61,189 nucleotides of DNA from a virus. This document shows positions 1,717 to 8,856 of the stretch, one piece after another (the stretch's first letter is position 1; every line of letters begins with the position of its first letter). A program made the position numbers and the translations under genes. Where the stretch lies: positions 1-61,189 of IMG/VR virus record IMGVR_UViG_3300045454_000015, one strand, 5' to 3'. Below the pieces are notes generated by a model. It did not search any database. It saw only the letters and a program-made list of their open reading frames with translations, and was not told the origin of the DNA.

Positions 1717-2477
1717 GCACCAACCTCCTGGCGCATGGCCGGCGGCAAGGCGCCTGCCTCGACGCCAGCGAAACCCGTGCTCGCGGGCGGCGCTTCTTCG
1801 TGAGCCATCAGGGCACACCTGGCCATGTCCACATGCGCCACCGGCAGGCGCTCGCCAGCTTTCACGCGGTCCAGCAGGCGCTCGGCCCACTCGGTGCCGC
1901 GGCGGATCGTCGGGGCCTCGACCTTGAGCGCGGCTGCGCGCACCTTGGCCTCGTCCCTTGACAGCGGCTCGGGCGCCGGCAGCGCCTTCGGCGGCGGCGG
2001 GATCTCGGCAGGCAGCTCGCCGCGCTCGACCTTGGCCTTGGCCTTCTCGAGCTCACCCTTCCACCGCTCGCCGTGCTTGGCGAGCTCGCCTGTGCGCAGC
2101 TCGTGCGCCATCTCGCGGTAGGCGTGGAAGACCCACGGCGCCGACCAGGTGCCCACCTCGCCGGCCTCGCGCTCCTTGGCGGCCGCCTGGGCCTCGTACC
2201 ACAGCAGCGTGGGGTTCATCGGCGGGCGGCAGAGCTTCAGGAACTCGGGCAGGGTCGGGGGCCAGTCGCGCTGCTCGCACGCGGTCAACCCACGGCGCAG
2301 TTCGTCGCCAGACAGGCCGGCCAGCTTCTGCGCCCAGAAGGCCTTGAGCGTGGCCGGGTCTTGGCTCCCCCACTGGTCCACGAACTTCGAGCCGTACAGA
2401 GCGCCAAGCTCGGCAAAGATGCGCTCGATCCACTTCGTCGGCAAAGGCTCAGACGTCGATGTAGTCGCCAGTTGCAT
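1713..2477 (-). CDS. Replication protein P-like (helicase loader), 254 aa
   Basis: W..RIFAELGALYGSKF and DWPPTLPEFLKLCR resemble the lambda P family. It follows the O-like gene. Confidence 0.6.
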   Translation of the reverse strand: MQLATTSTSEPLPTKWIERIFAELGALYGSKFVDQWGSQDPATLKAFWAQKLAGLSGDELRRGLTACEQRDWPPTLPEFLKLCRPPMNPTLLWYEAQAAAKEREAGEVGTWSAPWVFHAYREMAHELRTGELAKHGERWKGELEKAKAKVERGELPAEIPPPPKALPAPEPLSRDEAKVRAAALKVEAPTIRRGTEWAERLLDRVKAGERLPVAHVDMARCALMAHEEAPPASTGFAGVEAGALPPAMRQEVGA

Positions 2478-3270
2478 GGCTTGCTCCCTTCACGAACTCG
2501 CCGCCCAGGGCGGCCATGGTTTCCTTGCGCTGGTCCATCCGCGTGCCGCCGCGCTCGCCGCTGGAGCGCTGGCACGCGGCCTTGAGGAACGATGGGGGGT
2601 CGGCGGGCCGCTCGAGCACCGCGACGCGCACTGCCTGGACGACGATCTCAGCGCCGTAGTCCTTGACCAGCTTTCCGACGAAGTAGCCGCACTGCTTGGC
2701 AGGCATGCCGCTCTGCTCCAGCAGCGACTTCCCAGCTGCCCAAAGCTCGTCCTTGGTCATCTGCTCAATGGTCTTGGCCGGCGGCGAGCCGCCCGCTCCG
2801 TCAGGAGCGGAAGAAGCGAACGTAGTGAGCGGTGTAGGTGATGGTGGAGGGCATTCCTCATGCATATGCTCTGGCAATGCTTGTGGCATGCTTGGAGCAT
2901 TGCTTGAGGAATGCTCTTGAGGCTTCTTCCATCGTGCTTGTGCTGCCCTGCCGGCTTTCTCCGCGGCCTTCTTGGAGCGTTCATCAGCCTCCGCAATCTC
3001 GGCTTCGACACGCTTGTGCCACCACACGCCGTCACCGACCCTGAAGAACTTGGCCAGCACCGGGCGAACCCTCTTCCATTCGGAGCGCTCCAGCTTCGTG
3101 ATCGCTCGCAGCTCCTCGTCATCGTCAGCCAACGCCTTGCGCTCGCGCCAGTAGGCAATGAGCAGCAGCAGGTAGGCCCCGTGCTGAAGCGTGGTGAGCT
3201 TCATGGTGTCGGCCAGGTAGGCGCCGATCCACAGCGGCATCCAGGTGTCGGCCTTCTTGTCACCGGCCAT
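2449..3270 (-). CDS. DUF1376/YdaU-family replication initiation (O-like) protein, 273 aa
   Basis: WMPLWIGAYLADTMKLTTLQHGAYLLLLIAYW is the DUF1376 signature. Start MAGDKK overlaps the upstream stop (TGATG). Confidence 0.7.
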   Translation of the reverse strand: MAGDKKADTWMPLWIGAYLADTMKLTTLQHGAYLLLLIAYWRERKALADDDEELRAITKLERSEWKRVRPVLAKFFRVGDGVWWHKRVEAEIAEADERSKKAAEKAGRAAQARWKKPQEHSSSNAPSMPQALPEHMHEECPPPSPTPLTTFASSAPDGAGGSPPAKTIEQMTKDELWAAGKSLLEQSGMPAKQCGYFVGKLVKDYGAEIVVQAVRVAVLERPADPPSFLKAACQRSSGERGGTRMDQRKETMAALGGEFVKGASHATGDYIDV

Positions 3271-3920
3271 CAGGCTGCCTCCCACGAGAAAAGGTCCATG
3301 GTTGCTGGCGGCTCTGGCTGGGCAAGAGTGCGCTCCACGTGTTCAATGCGTGCCCGAGCAATCGCCACATATTCCTCCTCACGCTCGATGCCGACGAACC
3401 TGAAGCCCTCCAGGACGGCGCCTCTTCCAGTGCTGCCGCTGCCCATGAACGGGTCCAGCACCACGCCGCCGGGAGGTGTCACCAGGCGGCAGAGGTAGCG
3501 CATCAGGTCGGTGGGCTTGACGGTGGGGTGGTTGTTCTTGCCCTGGGCGGGCGGCTTGCCGTCGATGCGCGTGTCGTTGCCGACCATGCGTCGGCCGCGA
3601 TGTTGGCCGTAGGGGTCGGCCGTCACGGTCGGCATGTGGCCCAAGCCTTCGTCCCGCTCCCGCTTGCTCGCCTTGGCGCAGTAGAAGAACCGGGCGGCGC
3701 TGCCGGTGTCGCCCCTTGGGGTGGTGGCCGGGCGCCCGTTGAACTGCCCGTAGACGGCGTTCGTCTTGCTGCTCGGCTCATTGCCAGTAACGGCGCCCTG
3801 CTGACCGTTGGCCTGCGGGAACGCCGCCAGCACCTCGTCGCGCGCCGGGTTCGGCTCCGCCCGAAACAGCGCCTGCAGGTGCGCCGGCATGGCCTTGTAT
3901 GTCTCCTCGTCAATCCGCAT
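3270..3920 (-). CDS. DNA methyltransferase, C-terminal half (SAM-binding part), 216 aa
   Basis: ARFFYCAKASKRER, NHPTVKPTDLMRYL and DPFMGSGSTG (motif I) are typical of N6_N4 beta-class MTases. The catalytic DPPY is absent here. Confidence 0.85.
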   Translation of the reverse strand: MRIDEETYKAMPAHLQALFRAEPNPARDEVLAAFPQANGQQGAVTGNEPSSKTNAVYGQFNGRPATTPRGDTGSAARFFYCAKASKRERDEGLGHMPTVTADPYGQHRGRRMVGNDTRIDGKPPAQGKNNHPTVKPTDLMRYLCRLVTPPGGVVLDPFMGSGSTGRGAVLEGFRFVGIEREEEYVAIARARIEHVERTLAQPEPPATMDLFSWEAA

Positions 3921-4515
3921 AGCGAGTCCTTCCGTGTTCTTCGTAATGGCATGCGCGGCAGAGCGTCACGCCGTTGTCGAGCGCCCAGAGTTCGGCGGCA
4001 TGAAGGCGGGCGTCGTCTCGCGACGAGATGCCAAGCGCCTCGATCAGATCCGCAAGCGGTGTGCGGTGGTGGGCCTCAAGGGTTTCCGTGGCGGCGCAGC
4101 GCGTGCATTTATGGCCGTCCCGCGCCTTCACCGCATCCATCCAGCGACGGTTCTCGGTCATGCGCCGGATCGACGCATTCAGCTTGGACGCCCCTCCCTT
4201 CCATCGGTAGTGCGCCTCGCCGCGCACCTTTTCGCCGCGAGCCGCCACGCGATCCGGGTTCGCTGCGCACCAGGCTTTGTGGGACGCGGAAGTCTTGGCC
4301 TTAGACTCGGCGCGGTGCCGATAGCCGGCGCGTCGGTTGTCTCCGGGGCGGCGCCCCAGCTTCAGCGCAGCGGCTTGCGCCTCGGTCACGCCGGATGCGG
4401 CCTGCGCCTGCCCCCGATGCTCAAGGCAGGCGACGTGACGAACCCGCGCGAGATCGGAGGGCCGCCGATACAGCGGCTTCTGGCAGATCACGCAGGCGCA
4501 GTTAGGCGTTCGCAT
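3910..4515 (-). CDS. HNH homing-type endonuclease, 201 aa
   Basis: CTRCAATETLEAHHRTPL...NGVTLCRACHYEEH is an HNH motif, with an N-terminal CxxC. It lies between the two MTase halves and overlaps both. Confidence 0.85.
   Translation of the reverse strand: MRTPNCACVICQKPLYRRPSDLARVRHVACLEHRGQAQAASGVTEAQAAALKLGRRPGDNRRAGYRHRAESKAKTSASHKAWCAANPDRVAARGEKVRGEAHYRWKGGASKLNASIRRMTENRRWMDAVKARDGHKCTRCAATETLEAHHRTPLADLIEALGISSRDDARLHAAELWALDNGVTLCRACHYEEHGRTRYAD
3910..4515 (-). mobile_element. Free-standing homing endonuclease gene inserted in the MTase gene
   Basis: The HNH ORF separates MTase motif IV and motif I, which are contiguous in this enzyme class. Confidence 0.6.
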
Positions 4516-5665
4516 CCATCCACTCCGAGAGTTGTCGAAGCTGGCCGGGCGTCACGTCGTCGCGCAGCGCGTACTGGTCTTCGGGAACCGACAGGATCAG
4601 GTTGGCGGGCCAGCGGCCAACATAGGTCTTCGGATCGCCCTGCGTGCCGCGCCGCGCCTCAGCGGTACCGGCTGCGCCCAGCGCGTTGCCGTGGCAGGGC
4701 GCTAGCGAAGTGAAAGCCGCGACGCGCACTTCATCGCCCACCCTGCATCCGTCGATGTTCAACGCCCCAGTGCCATGCGCCTGCACGTTCTCGGCCACGG
4801 TACCGGCCAGGGGCTTGCGGGCCACCACAATGCTTTCCCATGCGGGCTTGAGCGCTGTTCCCCAGCCCTCCCATTCGCCGCTCAGGTTGTGACTCTTGGG
4901 GAATCCCGAGCCAAAAATCCAGCCGATGCAATCCCGCACCTCGAAGCCTGCGTCCTCGATTCCGGCTGCCAGTCGGTGATACTGCCGCGGCGCGCCAAAG
5001 GCGAGCATGTGCCCGCCCGGCTTCAGGACGCGCAAGCACTCGGCTGCCCAAACCCGGCACCAGTCTTGGAATCGGTGCCCAGACCACGGAACGTCGGTGT
5101 AGCGCCGAACATCCTCCAGTCGCGCCTTCAAGAGCGCGGCGCGCGACTGGTCGGCTTGACCATGCCAGCGGTTTCCGCGCGGGCGCTCCAGCCACTCCCA
5201 CACAGCCTGAGCCCACACCTCGAAGTCGTTCGCCTTCTTGGCCGTCAAGGGGTAACGCCGAAACAGGCCGACCAAAGCCTCACACCCCTCTTTGTCCTGC
5301 ACGACGTAGACCGCTTGAGGGCTGCTACTGCCCTCGCCGTCCGCATCCCGAACGGTACCGTGGCCGACGAACCGCCGGATGCGCTCCAACACCGCCCGGT
5401 CGTCGCGGCGCAACTTGATCTGAAAGGCGCAGATATGCGTTCCTCTTTCGTGGCGCTGAACCCGGAAACACCCCTCGCCGTCCGTGAATCCGGCCAGCCA
5501 GTAGCCGAACCCGGCATCCTCACGCCCGTCGTGTTTATCCCATTGCTTGCCCATGAATCCGCCGGGCAGCGCATAGGGCGGATCGGTGACGATCGCGTCG
5601 ATGCTGTTCTCGGGCATGCCGCGCAGCACCTCCAGACAGTCGCCGTGGTGGATATCGAACGGCAT
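4502..5665 (-). CDS. DNA methyltransferase, N-terminal half, with an in-frame LAGLIDADG domain, 387 aa
   Basis: GDCLEVL...IVTDPPY (motif IV), RVLKPGG and GRWPANLIL are present. An inserted segment YWLAGFTDGEGCFRV...YPLTAKKANDFEVW lies at about nt 5081-5527. Confidence 0.85.
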   Translation of the reverse strand: MPFDIHHGDCLEVLRGMPENSIDAIVTDPPYALPGGFMGKQWDKHDGREDAGFGYWLAGFTDGEGCFRVQRHERGTHICAFQIKLRRDDRAVLERIRRFVGHGTVRDADGEGSSSPQAVYVVQDKEGCEALVGLFRRYPLTAKKANDFEVWAQAVWEWLERPRGNRWHGQADQSRAALLKARLEDVRRYTDVPWSGHRFQDWCRVWAAECLRVLKPGGHMLAFGAPRQYHRLAAGIEDAGFEVRDCIGWIFGSGFPKSHNLSGEWEGWGTALKPAWESIVVARKPLAGTVAENVQAHGTGALNIDGCRVGDEVRVAAFTSLAPCHGNALGAAGTAEARRGTQGDPKTYVGRWPANLILSVPEDQYALRDDVTPGQLRQLSEWMDANA

Positions 5666-6018
5666 CAGTGCACACATCGGATCAGGTACACGGCCACCGG
5701 GTGACTGCGGGTCTTGACGGCTGCGGCCTTCGCGTACACCTGCGATCCATCCGGGTGTGTCTTCGGCGCGATCAGCCCGGCGCGCATCAGTAGGCGCGGC
5801 GCGGAGCCCCAGGCCGCCGAGCTGGGCGGCTGCTGCTTGGCTGCTGCTCTGAACTCTTCAACTCTGAAATCGCGCAGGCCCATCGCCACGCGCCTGGCGG
5901 CCCAGGCCCGGAACTCGGCCAACATGCGGTCGGCCCAGCTCTCGTCGATGTCGAGCGCGAGCTGCTGGCCAAGAGCCTTGCGGCGCTGGCCTTCTTGGGG
6001 GTCGAGGAGCACTGTCAT
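5665..6018 (-). CDS. Hypothetical protein, 117 aa
   Basis: Internal ATG (MTVLLDPQEG) of track ORF 5665..6066. ATGA overlap with the upstream stop. Confidence 0.5.
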   Translation of the reverse strand: MTVLLDPQEGQRRKALGQQLALDIDESWADRMLAEFRAWAARRVAMGLRDFRVEEFRAAAKQQPPSSAAWGSAPRLLMRAGLIAPKTHPDGSQVYAKAAAVKTRSHPVAVYLIRCVH

Positions 6019-6218
6019 GCCAGCGCCTCCACCCAGGTCGCACGAGGGCGCGGCGCTACGTGCCACGCGCCCTGCGGCACCCAGACGACACCGGACGACT
6101 CGGCCTTCAAGGGCGGCAGGTCGCCCGTCACACGAAGGGCTGCGGTGATCGTCTTGCGTGAGACTTCGACGCCAGCACGCGCTGCGTCGAGAATCTCCTT
6201 GGCTTCAGCCTTGGTCAT
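6015..6218 (-). CDS. Hypothetical protein, 67 aa
   Basis: Track ORF on the operon strand, coupled to its neighbours. Confidence 0.5.
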   Translation of the reverse strand: MTKAEAKEILDAARAGVEVSRKTITAALRVTGDLPPLKAESSGVVWVPQGAWHVAPRPRATWVEALA

Positions 6219-8059: not shown

Positions 8060-8320
8060 TCACACCCCCTCTTGCTCGGGGATCTTGGGGGCGCCCTTGG
8101 CCTTCCTCAATTCAGGCCACAGCAGCCACCAGTCGTTGGGGCGCAGGTCCCAGCGCTTCACCGCCCCACCAGTTGCGACCTCGATGGCGGTCGCCCTCAG
8201 AGCTGGGACGGGACGTGTGCCACGGCTCCACTGCCACACCAGCTGCGGGGGGCAGCGCAGCAACTTGGCCAGCTCGGTCTGGCGCCCGTGGGCCTGGTCA
8301 ACGTAGTCGGCAAGGTTCAT
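8060..8320 (-). CDS. Cro-like (YdaS-type HTH) regulator, 86 aa
   Basis: QTELAKLLRCPPQLVWQWSRGTRPVP is an HTH. It is divergent from the repressor gene. Alternative starts exist at 8329 and 8356. Confidence 0.7.
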   Translation of the reverse strand: MNLADYVDQAHGRQTELAKLLRCPPQLVWQWSRGTRPVPALRATAIEVATGGAVKRWDLRPNDWWLLWPELRKAKGAPKIPEQEGV

Positions 8321-8327
8321 GGCCGAC

Positions 8328-8356
8328 ATATTAAGCGCGTCGCTTGATGTTTGCAA
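8328..8356 (-). promoter_or_regulatory. PR-like promoter (TTGCAA-17-TAATAT)
   Basis: The -35 lies at 8356..8351 and the -10 at 8333..8328 on the minus strand, overlapped by operator copies 1 and 2. The ATG at 8320 lies about 7 nt after the -10. Confidence 0.5.
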
Positions 8357-8392
8357 GCGCGGCGCTTCTTGGTCTTTCTAAGCGGTTCGCTT
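8333..8392. promoter_or_regulatory. Tripartite operator (3 x AAGCG-N3-CGCTT)
   Basis: Copies at 8333..8345 (aagcgcgtcgctt), 8355..8367 (aagcgcggcgctt) and 8380..8392 (aagcggttcgctt), all between the divergent cro-like and cI-like genes. Confidence 0.75.
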
Positions 8393-8397
8393 GCAAT
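8369..8397 (+). promoter_or_regulatory. Candidate weak PRM-like promoter (TTGGTC-17-TGCAAT)
   Basis: The -10 ends 6 nt before the ATG at 8404. Operator 2 abuts the -35 and operator 3 covers the spacer and -10. Confidence 0.3.
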
Positions 8398-8403
8398 CCG
8401 CAG

Positions 8404-8856
8404 ATGAAGACCGTCAGCGATATTCGGAGAGCCAACCTGGAGGCCCTAATCCAGGAGCACGGGACACTTGAGGCCGTGGCCGCCAAGGGATCAACCTCAT
8501 CGGTCTACCTGAGCCAGATTCGCAACTCGGCCAAGGACGCAAAGACAGGCCGGCCCAGGCAGATGGGCGACAAGATGGCTCGAGCATTGGAGCGCGGCTG
8601 CGGCAAGCCGCCTGGCTGGATGGACGCTGACCACTCAGGTCAGTCACCCGTGATCTACGATCCCGAGGCTGGGTCAGGAATGACGCTGGCCACCGCGATT
8701 GCTTACCTTGGTAGGCGCCTGCAGGACGTGGACGCCATGGACCGCCGGGCGGTGCTGGAGATGCTGAGGGGGCTGGAGACGCGCCCGGCCGATGCGCCGA
8801 GGATTGGTCAGGTCATCGAGCGACTGATGGAGGCAGCCAAACAGTCCATCGCATGA
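8404..8856 (+). CDS. CI-type repressor (HTH only, no peptidase domain), 150 aa
   Basis: MKTVSDIRRANLEALIQEHG...YLSQIRN...MGDKMARALERGCGKPPGWMD matches the phage CI-repressor HTH pattern. No S24 (LexA-like) C-terminal motifs. Confidence 0.7.
   Translation: MKTVSDIRRANLEALIQEHGTLEAVAAKGSTSSVYLSQIRNSAKDAKTGRPRQMGDKMARALERGCGKPPGWMDADHSGQSPVIYDPEAGSGMTLATAIAYLGRRLQDVDAMDRRAVLEMLRGLETRPADAPRIGQVIERLMEAAKQSIA

What the first reader, a model, noticed from the sequence alone, without database searches (positions are those of the whole stretch)
5081..5527. In-frame LAGLIDADG domain inside the methyltransferase N-half, without intein hallmarks
About 150 aa are inserted between motif IV (DPPY...GKQWDKHDG) and the conserved HRFQDWC..RVLKPGG segment. 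The insert reads like a single-motif LAGLIDADG homing endonuclease: YWLAGFTDGEGCFRV, ...DDRAVLERIRRFVG.G.V..., YPLTAKKANDFEVW.

The reading frame is continuous on both sides. I see no Cys/Ser at a plausible N-terminal splice junction and no His-Asn followed by Cys/Ser/Thr at the C-terminal junction. It therefore does not look like an intein.

A LAGLIDADG fold fused inside an MTase could be a domesticated DNA-recognition module or a decaying mobile element. With the HNH gene next door, one gene hosts two different homing-endonuclease families.
Basis: partly seen in the sequence, partly recalled or inferred. Interest (0 to 1): 0.7.

Follow-up and report, generated by a model that had tools for sequence, protein, structure and literature searches.

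The report
Splicing-free homing endonuclease inside phage methylase
A complete LAGLIDADG homing-endonuclease gene, without its own start or stop codon, sits in frame in a surface loop of a phage DNA adenine methyltransferase with no intein or intron to remove it; the arrangement is real and probably still mobile, but it was already described in 2023 for mycobacteriophage methylases.

Summary
Window 5099-5524 (minus strand) encodes a full single-motif LAGLIDADG_1 domain (Pfam E=7e-16, whole model). It lies in frame between the invariant FMGKxWD motif and the RVLKPGG segment of a beta-class N6-adenine methyltransferase.

It is neither an intein nor an intron. No Hint or intein model matches in Pfam, NCBIfam or Foldseek, Rfam finds no intron, and the roughly 150-aa insert is entirely taken up by the endonuclease.

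Free-standing 145-195-aa relatives align with the insert end to end, so it is a whole homing-endonuclease gene fused in frame. It is not decaying. The motif Glu is kept in 88 of 88 homologues, and pN/pS is about 0.19 with saturated synonymous sites.

Mobility signals:
- Syntenic phages differ by presence or absence of the insert.
- A 677-bp block around the insert is 98% identical to a contig whose adjacent methylase sequence differs by 17-47%.

The same insertion, at the same site, was published for mycobacteriophage Taj gp79 and eight relatives (Gosselin et al. 2023, PMC9957025). This is therefore a new member of a known kind, in a high-GC temperate phage. A separate, recently transferred HNH cassette splits the same gene.

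The parts
4502..5665 (-). Methyltransferase N-half ORF (387 aa; an alternative ATG at 5677 gives 391 aa). It carries motif IV, the in-frame LAGLIDADG insert, motifs V-VIII and a tail supplied by the HNH cassette.
   Evidence: ORF list. Pfam PF00961 + PF01555. The exact 387-aa sequence is on record on the 61189-bp JGI contig.
5573..5584 (-). Motif IV, DPPY (catalytic motif of N6-adenine/N4-cytosine methyltransferases).
   Evidence: Coordinates. D, P, P and Y are invariant in the 84- and 76-sequence alignments.
5537..5557 (-). FMGKQWD, the invariant motif immediately 5' of the insertion point and the conserved half of the presumed target site.
   Evidence: F, M, W and D are invariant across methylases with and without the insert. 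The DNA consensus TTCATGGGcAAgnnnTGGGAc holds in 72 insert-less phage methylases, with variable sequence downstream.
5099..5524 (-). In-frame LAGLIDADG homing endonuclease core (R52-Y193 in 391-aa numbering). It is one complete single-motif endonuclease without its own start or stop codon. Linkers extend it to about 5081-5536.
   Evidence: Pfam E=7e-16. PDB hits. Free-standing ORFs of 145-195 aa align from about 10 aa before FGYWLAG to just after VRRY. AlphaFold2 pLDDT 88-97. Foldseek hits to I-OnuI, I-CreI and I-TnaI.
5471..5497 (-). The LAGLIDADG motif itself, LAGFTDGEG. The catalytic-position Glu68 codon is at 5474-5476.
   Evidence: Aligned to WLAGFTSGEGCF of the I-OnuI C-terminal domain. 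The Glu is present in 88 of 88 insert-bearing homologues. G, D, G, E and G are invariant in alignment A2, which includes free-standing relatives.
5234..5251 (-). PLTAKK segment. Its second Lys (codon 5234-5236) is invariant and aligns with the conserved Lys of I-OnuI-family domains.
   Evidence: Invariant L and K in A2. Alignment to ...YPLITQK... in the PDB hits.
4938..5614 (-). Block of near-identical DNA shared with unrelated contigs. It contains the insert plus about 90 bp of 5' flank and about 145 bp of 3' flank, and is read as a co-conversion or recombination tract.
   Evidence: Against L250: 14/677 mismatches inside the block, 24/51 (5615-5665) and 35/205 (4733-4937) outside it. Against L251: 29/650 inside, 25/78 and 43/205 outside. 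Upstream genes are unrelated. Fisher p=4e-23 and 1e-17. Insert pS is 0.08-0.15 against flank pS 0.26-0.36.
3834..4613 (-). Separate mobile HNH cassette that splits the methylase gene. It supplies the tail LSVPEDQYALRDDVTPGQLRQLSEWMDANA plus a stop codon to the N-half, the HNH ORF, and a new start plus the leader MRIDEETYKAMPAHLQALFRAEPNPAR to the C-half.
   Evidence: About 98% nt identity to L008/L009/L091, whose methylase flanks are 65-80% identical. The same tail ends a LAGLIDADG-free methylase (P0114). The unsplit allele P0305 shows the junction RWPANLI|HDGSEEVLAAFPQ.
3910..4515 (-). HNH endonuclease ORF (201 aa).
   Evidence: Pfam HNH E=7e-4. PHROG HNH families E=2e-9. 99% aa identity to the ORF in L008. 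Its 90% cluster has 14 members.
3270..3920 (-). Methyltransferase C-half ORF (216 aa) with motif X and motif I (DPFMGSGST).
   Evidence: Pfam PF01555 model positions 155-219, E=4e-19. NCBIfam similarity to CcrM and other adenine methyltransferases. Homology to ordinary methylases begins at residue 28.

Best explanation
The insert is a complete single-motif LAGLIDADG homing endonuclease gene that lost its own start and stop codons. It now resides in frame in a permissive surface loop of a phage beta-class N6-adenine DNA methyltransferase, four residues after the invariant FMGKxWD motif that follows motif IV.

**Proposed mechanism.**
1. The insert is never removed. It is translated as an extra domain of the methylase, joined by flexible linkers. 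(Shown: domain identity, continuous frame, absence of any splicing machinery, independent fold.)
2. Two fusion proteins pair through their LAGLIDADG helices to form the two-fold symmetric nuclease, as in I-CreI. Solved beta-class methyltransferases have been reported as dimers, which would favour this. (Inferred.)
3. The dimer cuts methylase alleles that lack the insert, at or near the conserved TTCATGGG...TGGGA sequence. (Inferred.)
4. Recombinational repair during co-infection, or between a phage and a prophage, copies the endonuclease together with short flanking tracts into the cut allele. (Partly shown: presence/absence polymorphism and a 677-bp shared block.)

Because the methylase tolerates the extra domain, no intron or intein is needed. 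The element is kept intact by selection for nuclease function and for a foldable host protein.
For: **Domain and fold.** Pfam LAGLIDADG_1 E=7e-16 over the full model. PDB sequence hits at 2e-17. AlphaFold2 pLDDT 88-98 over the insert, with low-confidence linkers, in both the window protein and the 78%-identical full-length homologue P0006. Foldseek gives LAGLIDADG enzymes for the insert, and CcrM, M.BceJIV, M.RsrI and M.MboIIA for the remainder.

**A whole endonuclease gene.** Free-standing proteins of 145-195 aa are 40-50% identical over 93-95% of the insert, including the C-terminal RGNRW...VRRY helices, and they start and stop exactly at the insert's edges. Some sit directly upstream of a methylase gene (L002). 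One (P0123, L001) is fused to the methylase N-terminus and then stops, with the remainder of the methylase downstream.

**Active-site retention.** The motif Glu is present in 88 of 88 homologues. The Glu and the PLxxKK Lys are invariant, including in free-standing relatives.

**Selection.** Mean insert pN is 0.148 and pS 0.80, against flank pN 0.174 and pS 0.74, over 66 pairs.

**Patchiness.**
- None of 78 phage methylases sampled through the C-half carry the insert.
- The presence/absence state needs at least 5 changes on the flank tree (3-10 across 30 bootstrap replicates).
- L006 (insert) and L007 (empty) share a 99% identical upstream gene.

**Recent exchange.** The block 4938-5614 is 98% identical to L250 and 95.5% identical to L251, inside genes whose adjacent segments differ by 17-47% and whose upstream genes are unrelated.

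**Conserved insertion site.** The insert lies next to the most conserved DNA of the region.

**No splicing element.**
Against: - No cleavage, dimerisation or homing was measured. The target site is inferred only.
- For most allele pairs the insert and its flanks have diverged in parallel, with saturated pS in both. Most inheritance therefore looks vertical.
- One apparent 'young insert' pair (P0015/P0018) turned out to reflect strong amino-acid constraint, not transfer.
- Gosselin et al. found no strong evidence for transfer among nine actinophage copies.
- The shared 677-bp block could come from ordinary homologous recombination between mosaic phages, without any endonuclease involvement.
- Constraint as strong as on the host enzyme is also what a co-opted domain would show.
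- The presumed target is not visibly palindromic, which a homodimeric enzyme would prefer (by eye only).
Confidence: 0.6

Rival explanations
1. Co-opted (domesticated) domain. The LAGLIDADG fold has been kept by the methylase for its own benefit, for example as a dimerisation or DNA-anchoring module, or as a weapon against competing phages. It is now inherited mostly vertically.
For: - The insert's amino-acid sequence is as constrained as the methylase flanks, or more so: pN 0.148 against 0.174, and L093-L252 has pN 0.038 at pS 0.89.
- Synonymous sites are saturated between most lineages, so retention is long-term.
- The architecture spans about 30 clusters at 50% identity in phages of Actinobacteria and Proteobacteria.
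- GC content is indistinguishable from the flanks.
- Gosselin et al. saw endonuclease and methylase distances correlate (R2 0.69 without phage Kersh).
Against: - The catalytic Glu and Lys are invariant. A pure binding or dimerisation role would not require them.
- Most family members function without the insert (0 of 78).
- There is presence/absence polymorphism between syntenic phages, and the flank tree is polyphyletic for the insert.
- The recombination block is centred on the insert.
- Free-standing and gene-splitting relatives occur next to methylase genes.
Confidence: 0.22
2. Restriction-modification-like single polypeptide. The nuclease domain and the methylase domain are functionally coupled, with the methylase protecting the carrier genome from its own LAGLIDADG nuclease.
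For: Nuclease and methylase lie in one chain, both with intact catalytic motifs. Gosselin et al. raised this as an alternative.
Against: [quoted passage not shown] Insertion already destroys the presumed target in the carrier, so no protection is needed. Most relatives of the methylase are orphan enzymes without the domain.
Confidence: 0.05
3. Decaying remnant of a homing endonuclease that is merely tolerated.
For: It is in frame and cannot be excised, so it could linger as a passenger.
Against: pN/pS is about 0.19 with saturated pS. The motif Glu is retained in 88 of 88 homologues. The Pfam match covers the full model. The fold is predicted with high confidence.
Confidence: 0.03
4. An unusual intein, or an intron-encoded endonuclease read through in frame, so that the insert is removed after all.
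For: Inteins with LAGLIDADG domains do occur at another site in this same methylase family.
Against: - No Hint or intein model matches at E<=1 in Pfam or NCBIfam.
- No intein appears among the top 50 Foldseek hits.
- The 150-aa insert equals one endonuclease, leaving no room for a splicing domain of at least 130 aa.
- The junction residues are wrong.
- Rfam finds no intron at E<=1 over 3000-6200, only chance hits far below gathering scores.
- Substitutions fall mainly at third codon positions throughout the insert.
Confidence: 0.02

Closest known systems
'Second LAGLIDADG endonuclease' of actinophage N6/N4 methylases (mycobacteriophage Taj gp79, Kersh, Mova and others; Gosselin et al. 2023, Genes 14:288, PMC9957025)
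   Same: - Same host protein family: the Taj methylase is P0053, 52% identical over 91% of the window ORF.
- Same insertion point after FMxxxWD.
- Same single LAGLIDADG_1 domain, read in frame, with no splicing domain.
- Predicted there too as an independent domain.
   Different: - The published set was nine cluster-F actinophage sequences, with no clear evidence of transfer.
- This copy is in a 66% GC temperate-phage contig whose closest named relative is from Delftia.
- The gene is additionally split by an HNH cassette.
- The wider sample here adds free-standing relatives, presence/absence in syntenic phages, a co-conversion-like block and dN/dS.
Homodimeric single-motif LAGLIDADG homing endonucleases (I-CreI, I-MsoI, I-TnaI)
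   Same: One LAGLIDADG motif per chain, about 150 aa, the same fold (Foldseek TM 0.68 to I-CreI 4aad and I-TnaI 5gkk), and an acidic residue at the motif's end.
   Different: Those enzymes are free-standing or intron-encoded proteins. This one is an internal domain of another enzyme, tethered at both ends.
LAGLIDADG-containing inteins (e.g. PI-SceI, PI-PfuI, and the intein found elsewhere in this methylase family)
   Same: An in-frame endonuclease domain inside a conserved host protein, with a mobile lifestyle at the DNA level.
   Different: There is no Hint splicing domain and there are no splice-junction residues. The host protein must function with the domain in place.
In-frame rps3-endonuclease fusions in fungal mitochondria (I-OnuI, I-LtrI; PDB entries named 'Ribosomal protein 3/homing endonuclease-like protein fusion')
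   Same: A LAGLIDADG gene inserted in frame into a protein-coding gene without an intron or intein of its own. These are also the closest solved sequence relatives of the insert.
   Different: Those are two-domain monomers joined at the C-terminal end of rps3, with the displaced host sequence duplicated (own knowledge). Here a single domain is inserted internally.
ShiLan domain and other 'hidden' HNH insertions in phage methylases (Arsenault et al. 2025, PMC11855218); Aeh1 nrdA split by mobE (PMC3045599)
   Same: This is the relevant comparison for the neighbouring HNH cassette. An HNH endonuclease gene has invaded the same methylase family and is far less diverged than its host gene.
   Different: In ShiLan the methylase frame stays open and the HNH is read out of frame. 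Here the cassette ends the upstream fragment with a stop codon and restarts the downstream fragment, as in the Aeh1 genes-in-pieces case.

Membership tests
LAGLIDADG_1 homing endonuclease (PF00961) | Profile match above the curated threshold | tested here: met
   59.3 bits against a 23.1-bit cut-off, E=7.4e-16, model positions 1-102 of 102.
LAGLIDADG_1 homing endonuclease (PF00961) | Helix-strand-strand-helix-strand-strand-helix core fold | tested here: met
   DSSP of the AlphaFold2 models shows H51-64, E65-71, E77-86, H87-100, E104-108, E117-122, H125-137 at pLDDT 88-98. Foldseek hits include I-OnuI 3qqy (rmsd 3.7 over 142 columns) and I-CreI (TM 0.68).
LAGLIDADG_1 homing endonuclease (PF00961) | Acidic metal-binding residue at the end of the LAGLIDADG helix | tested here: met
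   Glu68 in LAGFTDGEG is aligned to I-OnuI GEG and kept in 88 of 88 homologues.
LAGLIDADG_1 homing endonuclease (PF00961) | Site-specific double-strand cleavage as a (homo)dimer | not testable with these tools
   Only single-chain prediction is available. No biochemistry.
Mobile homing endonuclease gene (functional definition) | Sporadic presence at one conserved site of a host gene | tested here: met
   The site is the same in 88 homologues. None of 78 other phage methylases carry it. At least 5 state changes are needed on the flank tree. L006 and L007 are an occupied/empty pair.
Mobile homing endonuclease gene (functional definition) | Element younger than its host gene, with co-converted flanks | tested here: inconclusive
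   Clear for the trio window/L250/L251: a 2-4.5% divergent block inside 17-47% divergent sequence, with insert pS 0.08-0.15 against flank 0.26-0.36. Absent for most other pairs, which diverge in parallel.
Intein | Hint splicing domain (blocks A, B, F, G) | tested here: not met
   No Hint or intein model at E<=1 in Pfam or NCBIfam. No intein among the top Foldseek hits. The insert length equals the endonuclease alone.
Intein | Cys/Ser at the N-junction; His-Asn followed by Cys/Ser/Thr at the C-junction | tested here: not met
   The junction sequences are WDKHDG|REDAGF and RRYTDVPW|SGHRF.
Group I/II intron carrying an endonuclease ORF | Ribozyme core recognisable by a covariance model | tested here: not met
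   An Rfam E-value scan of 3000-6200 gave only three chance hits far below their gathering scores.
Beta-class N6-adenine/N4-cytosine DNA methyltransferase (PF01555) | Motif IV (DPPY) N-terminal to motif I (FxGxG), plus a profile match | tested here: met
   DPPY lies in the N-half and DPFMGSGST in the C-half. PF01555 matches both halves. The model of homologue P0006 matches CcrM, M.BceJIV, M.RsrI and M.MboIIA.
Beta-class N6-adenine/N4-cytosine DNA methyltransferase (PF01555) | Methyl transfer activity of the split, insert-bearing protein | not testable with these tools
   Needs methylome or enzymatic data.
Actinophage methylase 'second endonuclease' (Gosselin 2023) | Same methylase family, same insertion site, in frame, no splicing domain | tested here: met
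   The Taj, Mova and Kersh methylases (P0053, P0049, P0056) align with the insert in the same columns.

The most novel reading that the evidence does not exclude
The endonuclease and the methylase are functionally coupled rather than merely co-resident. The methylase dimer would scaffold the homodimeric LAGLIDADG nuclease, or the nuclease domain would steer or anchor the methylase. That would make this a stable two-activity enzyme that phages keep as a weapon against insert-less competitors. It would explain why the insert is at least as constrained as the host enzyme across phages of two bacterial phyla.
Probability: 0.12. Interest if true: 0.75.

Novelty: new member of a known kind. Interest (0 to 1): 0.4.

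Why it matters
Homing endonuclease genes are usually thought to need an intron, an intein or an intergenic position in order to avoid damaging their host gene. This family shows another solution: an in-frame insertion into a loop that the host protein tolerates.

The case was already reported for nine mycobacteriophage methylases. The present copy and its relatives show three further things:
- **Breadth.** The arrangement is much broader than reported, with about 30 clusters at 50% identity in phages of Actinobacteria and Proteobacteria.
- **Maintenance.** It is kept under strong purifying selection.
- **Recent exchange.** It is at least sometimes exchanged as a short block centred on the insert.

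It is a tractable system for asking how a selfish nuclease persists without splicing. It is also a potential source of compact single-motif LAGLIDADG scaffolds that tolerate tethering at both ends. The same gene carries an independently mobile HNH cassette, so alleles with neither, either or both elements exist for comparison.

Tried and rejected
1. **Syntenic phages through the upstream neighbour.** A search of IMG/VR with the upstream neighbour protein found no relatives.
2. **Relatives through the methylase C-half.** This gave 80 loci at no more than 60% identity. None carried the insert or the HNH, so they were useful only as a frequency sample and for the empty-site consensus.
3. **Genome-collection scan.** Only one methylase-embedded locus came back (L010, a MAG labelled Planctomycetales), so no taxonomic distribution could be drawn.
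4. **Protein-level 'young insert' pairs.** I first read pairs whose insert is more similar than the flanks as evidence of transfer. The DNA comparison of P0015 and P0018 showed that 95% amino-acid identity coexists with about 75% nucleotide identity. That signal is selection, not transfer. Only the window/L250/L251 trio survives at synonymous sites.
5. **Hidden genes in other frames.** As with the ShiLan HNH, I checked three overlapping ORFs in the insert region. None has a Pfam match.
6. **Intron.** No Rfam hit.
7. **Compositional anomaly.** Insert GC (0.65-0.66) equals that of the flanks.
8. **Palindromic target.** None was obvious by eye in the empty-site consensus, and I did not pursue this further.
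9. **Similarity to deposited phages.** Megablast found only short methylase C-terminal matches at 78-87%.
Full report
**1. What is in the sequence**

On the minus strand, an ORF runs from 5665 (ATG; an alternative ATG lies at 5677) to 4502. It encodes the N-terminal two thirds of a DNA methyltransferase.

- Pfam places N6_N4_Mtase (PF01555) at residues 197-289. It places LAGLIDADG_1 (PF00961) at residues 61-159, with E=7.4e-16 and the whole 102-position model covered.
- The insert alone matches I-OnuI-family half-domains in the PDB at E=2e-17 to 1e-14. In those alignments WLAGFTDGEGCF lies on WLAGFTSGEGCF of the I-OnuI C-terminal domain, and YPLTAKK lies on YPLITQK.
- An AlphaFold2 model of the window's own ORF gives pLDDT 88-97 across the insert, with the canonical helix-strand-strand-helix-strand-strand-helix order plus two extra helices. 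The linker at residues 31-50 has low confidence.
- The top 50 Foldseek matches of that model are all LAGLIDADG enzymes, including homodimeric I-CreI and I-TnaI.

**2. It is neither an intein nor an intron**

- No Hint or intein family matches at E<=1 in Pfam or NCBIfam.
- No intein appears among the Foldseek hits.
- The junctions (WDKHDG|REDAGF and RRYTDVPW|SGHRF) lack splice-junction residues.
- The insert is about 150 aa, and free-standing relatives of 145-195 aa align with it from end to end. There is no room for a splicing domain.
- A permissive Rfam scan of 3000-6200 found no intron.
- Alternative-frame ORFs over the insert have no Pfam match.
- Substitutions relative to the uniformly diverged allele L090 fall mainly at third codon positions all along the insert, so it is read as protein in this frame.

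**3. The host protein**

A model of the 78%-identical, unsplit homologue P0006 (Delftia acidovorans) has mean pLDDT 81.5. Outside the insert it matches beta-class N6-adenine methyltransferases: CcrM, M.BceJIV, M.RsrI, M.MboIIA and M1.HpyAVI.

Aligning methylases with and without the insert shows that it sits between the invariant F-M-x-x-x-W-D motif and the helix preceding RVLKPGG. That stretch is 7-75 residues long in insert-less relatives. In 72 insert-less phage methylases the DNA just 5' of the site is the most conserved of the region (TTCATGGGcAAgnnnTGGGAc), while the 3' side is variable.

**4. The insert is a whole endonuclease gene, and its relatives accompany methylase genes**

A search with the insert alone returned single-domain proteins that are 40-50% identical over 93-95% of it. 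The matches include the C-terminal RGNRWHG...VRRY helices, so that tail belongs to the endonuclease and not to the methylase. Their genomic settings vary:

- P0133 lies directly upstream of, and overlaps, a methylase gene.
- P0134 lies upstream of an HNH gene and a methylase gene.
- P0123 consists of the methylase N-terminus up to DPP fused to the endonuclease. It then stops, and the remaining methylase is encoded downstream.
- P0140 is not near a methylase.

Free-standing, gene-splitting and fully in-frame versions of one endonuclease clade therefore all exist.

**5. Distribution**

- Of the 120 best homologues of the ORF, 87 (88 of 121 sequences counting the window ORF) carry the insert at the same columns. 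They include proteins from Delftia, Pseudomonas, Mycobacteroides and Pimelobacter, and from mycobacteriophages Taj, Mova and Kersh.
- IMG/VR holds 15 viral contigs with close embedded copies, and about 10 more at 37-45% identity.
- In a library clustered at 50% identity, about 30 of the best 150 relatives are long proteins with the domain at residues about 45-200. All 10 that I sampled have PF00961 plus PF01555 and nothing else.
- By contrast, none of 78 phage methylases sampled through the C-half carry it.
- The window is an entire 61,189-bp JGI contig. The gene lies in a temperate-phage early region, between CI/Cro-like repressors and a primosomal protein.

**6. Not decaying**

- The motif Glu is present in 88 of 88 copies.
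- The Glu and the Lys of PLxxKK are invariant, including in free-standing relatives.
- Over 66 pairs of 12 proteobacterial-type alleles, the insert has mean pN 0.148 at pS 0.80. The flanks have pN 0.174 at pS 0.74.
- GC content does not differ from the flanks.

**7. Evidence for mobility, and its limits**

(a) On a neighbour-joining tree of 167 flank columns, the insert state needs 5 changes (3-10 across 30 bootstrap replicates). P0071 (insert) is 10% from P0119 (no insert) but 31% from the nearest other insert-bearing flank.

(b) At the DNA level, L006 (P0071) and L007 (P0119) share a 99% identical upstream DUF559 gene. Their methylase genes are roughly 88% identical, and only L006 has the insert.

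(c) Window 4938-5614, which is the insert plus about 90 bp of 5' flank and 145 bp of 3' flank, was compared with two contigs:

| Comparison | Inside the block | 5' of the block | 3' of the block (4733-4937) |
|---|---|---|---|
| Window vs L250 | 14/677 mismatches | 24/51 (5615-5665) | 35/205 |
| Window vs L251 | 29/650 mismatches | 25/78 (5588-5665) | 43/205 |

Upstream genes are unrelated in both comparisons. Fisher p is 4e-23 and 1e-17. Synonymous divergence confirms the pattern: insert pS is 0.08-0.15 against flank pS 0.26-0.36.

Limits:
- Most other pairs diverge in parallel.
- One protein-level 'young insert' pair (P0015/P0018) is explained by constraint, not transfer.
- A recombination block does not by itself prove that the endonuclease made the break.

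**8. Mechanism proposed**

The domain is translated as part of the methylase, and two chains pair through the LAGLIDADG helices. Solved beta-class methyltransferases have been reported as dimers (own knowledge). The resulting homodimeric nuclease cuts insert-less alleles near the conserved FMGKxWD coding sequence. Repair then copies the insert with short flanks.

- Shown: domain identity, frame, absence of splicing, retention of active-site residues, selection, patchy presence, and one clear exchange block.
- Inferred: dimerisation, cleavage, the target, and methylase activity of the split protein.

**9. Comparison with what is known**

Gosselin et al. 2023 (PMC9957025) described exactly this 'second LAGLIDADG endonuclease' in nine cluster-F actinophage methylases, including Taj gp79. 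They noted that it lies outside the intein, showed by AlphaFold that it forms its own domain, and found no strong evidence for transfer.

The Taj methylase is P0053 in my searches. It is 52% identical over 91% of the window ORF, with the insert in the same columns. The window therefore holds a new member of a known kind.

- the cross-phylum breadth;
- the end-to-end match to free-standing genes;
- the selection analysis;
- one synonymous-site-supported exchange block.

**10. The neighbouring HNH**

Window 3834-4613 is about 98% identical to L008, L009 and L091, whose methylase flanks (LAGLIDADG insert included) are only 65-80% identical. The cassette supplies three things: a tail and stop codon to the N-half, the HNH ORF, and a new start and leader to the C-half.

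The same tail ends a LAGLIDADG-free methylase (P0114). An unsplit, LAGLIDADG-bearing allele (P0305) shows the empty junction. The two endonuclease elements are therefore independent, and the HNH is the more recent arrival.

This parallels the ShiLan HNH (PMC11855218) and the Aeh1 nrdA/mobE genes-in-pieces case (PMC3045599).

**Verdict**

The feature is real and correctly described. It is not an intein and it is not decaying. It is most likely a still-functional, in-frame homing endonuclease gene. It has already been published for a sister group, so interest is moderate.

Noticed in passing
window 3834-4613 (minus strand): An HNH cassette splits the methylase. It is about 98% nt identical to contigs whose surrounding methylase sequence is only 65-80% identical, so it is a recently transferred mobile element independent of the LAGLIDADG insert. 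Alleles with neither, either or both elements exist (P0114, P0305).
   Followed up: yes
window 4505-4594 and 3840-3920 (minus strand): The cassette-derived tail of the N-half (LSVPEDQYALRDDVTPGQLRQLSEWMDANA; residues 373-386 are predicted helical) and the leader of the C-half (MRIDEETYKAMPAHLQALFRAEPNPAR) have no counterpart in unsplit methylases. They might act as reassembly domains, as in Aeh1 NrdA (PMC3045599).
   Followed up: no
L001 3245-4340: P0123 has the methylase N-terminus (up to DPP) fused in frame to a related LAGLIDADG domain. It then stops, and the rest of the methylase is encoded by downstream ORFs. This is an intermediate between the free-standing and fully in-frame arrangements.
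   Followed up: partly
L002 4001-4582; P0126: Free-standing relatives P0133 and P0126 carry an N-terminal Cys-rich extension of about 45 aa (C..C...C..C) ahead of the LAGLIDADG domain. P0133 overlaps the start of a methylase gene. The extension may be a zinc-binding DNA-recognition add-on.
   Followed up: no
L252 3001-4628: In the P0018 contig the LAGLIDADG-bearing methylase is called as two overlapping ORFs (352 aa and 204 aa) with no endonuclease gene between them. This could be a frameshift, a sequencing error or another kind of split.
   Followed up: no
L170-L249 and L007: The empty insertion site in 72 insert-less phage methylases has the consensus TTCATGGGcAAgnnnTGGGAc followed by variable sequence. 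The conserved half lies entirely 5' of the insertion point.
   Followed up: partly
L251 3693-4004; P0082: A DUF4406 gene sits directly upstream of the methylase in L251. In Salana multivorans (P0082), DUF4406 is fused to an insert-less methylase of the same family.
   Followed up: no
window 2449-3285 and 8060-8856: The neighbourhood looks like the early region of a temperate phage: divergent CI-like (8344-8856, +) and Cro-like (8060-8356, -) repressors, and a primosomal/replication protein (2449-3285, -).
   Followed up: partly
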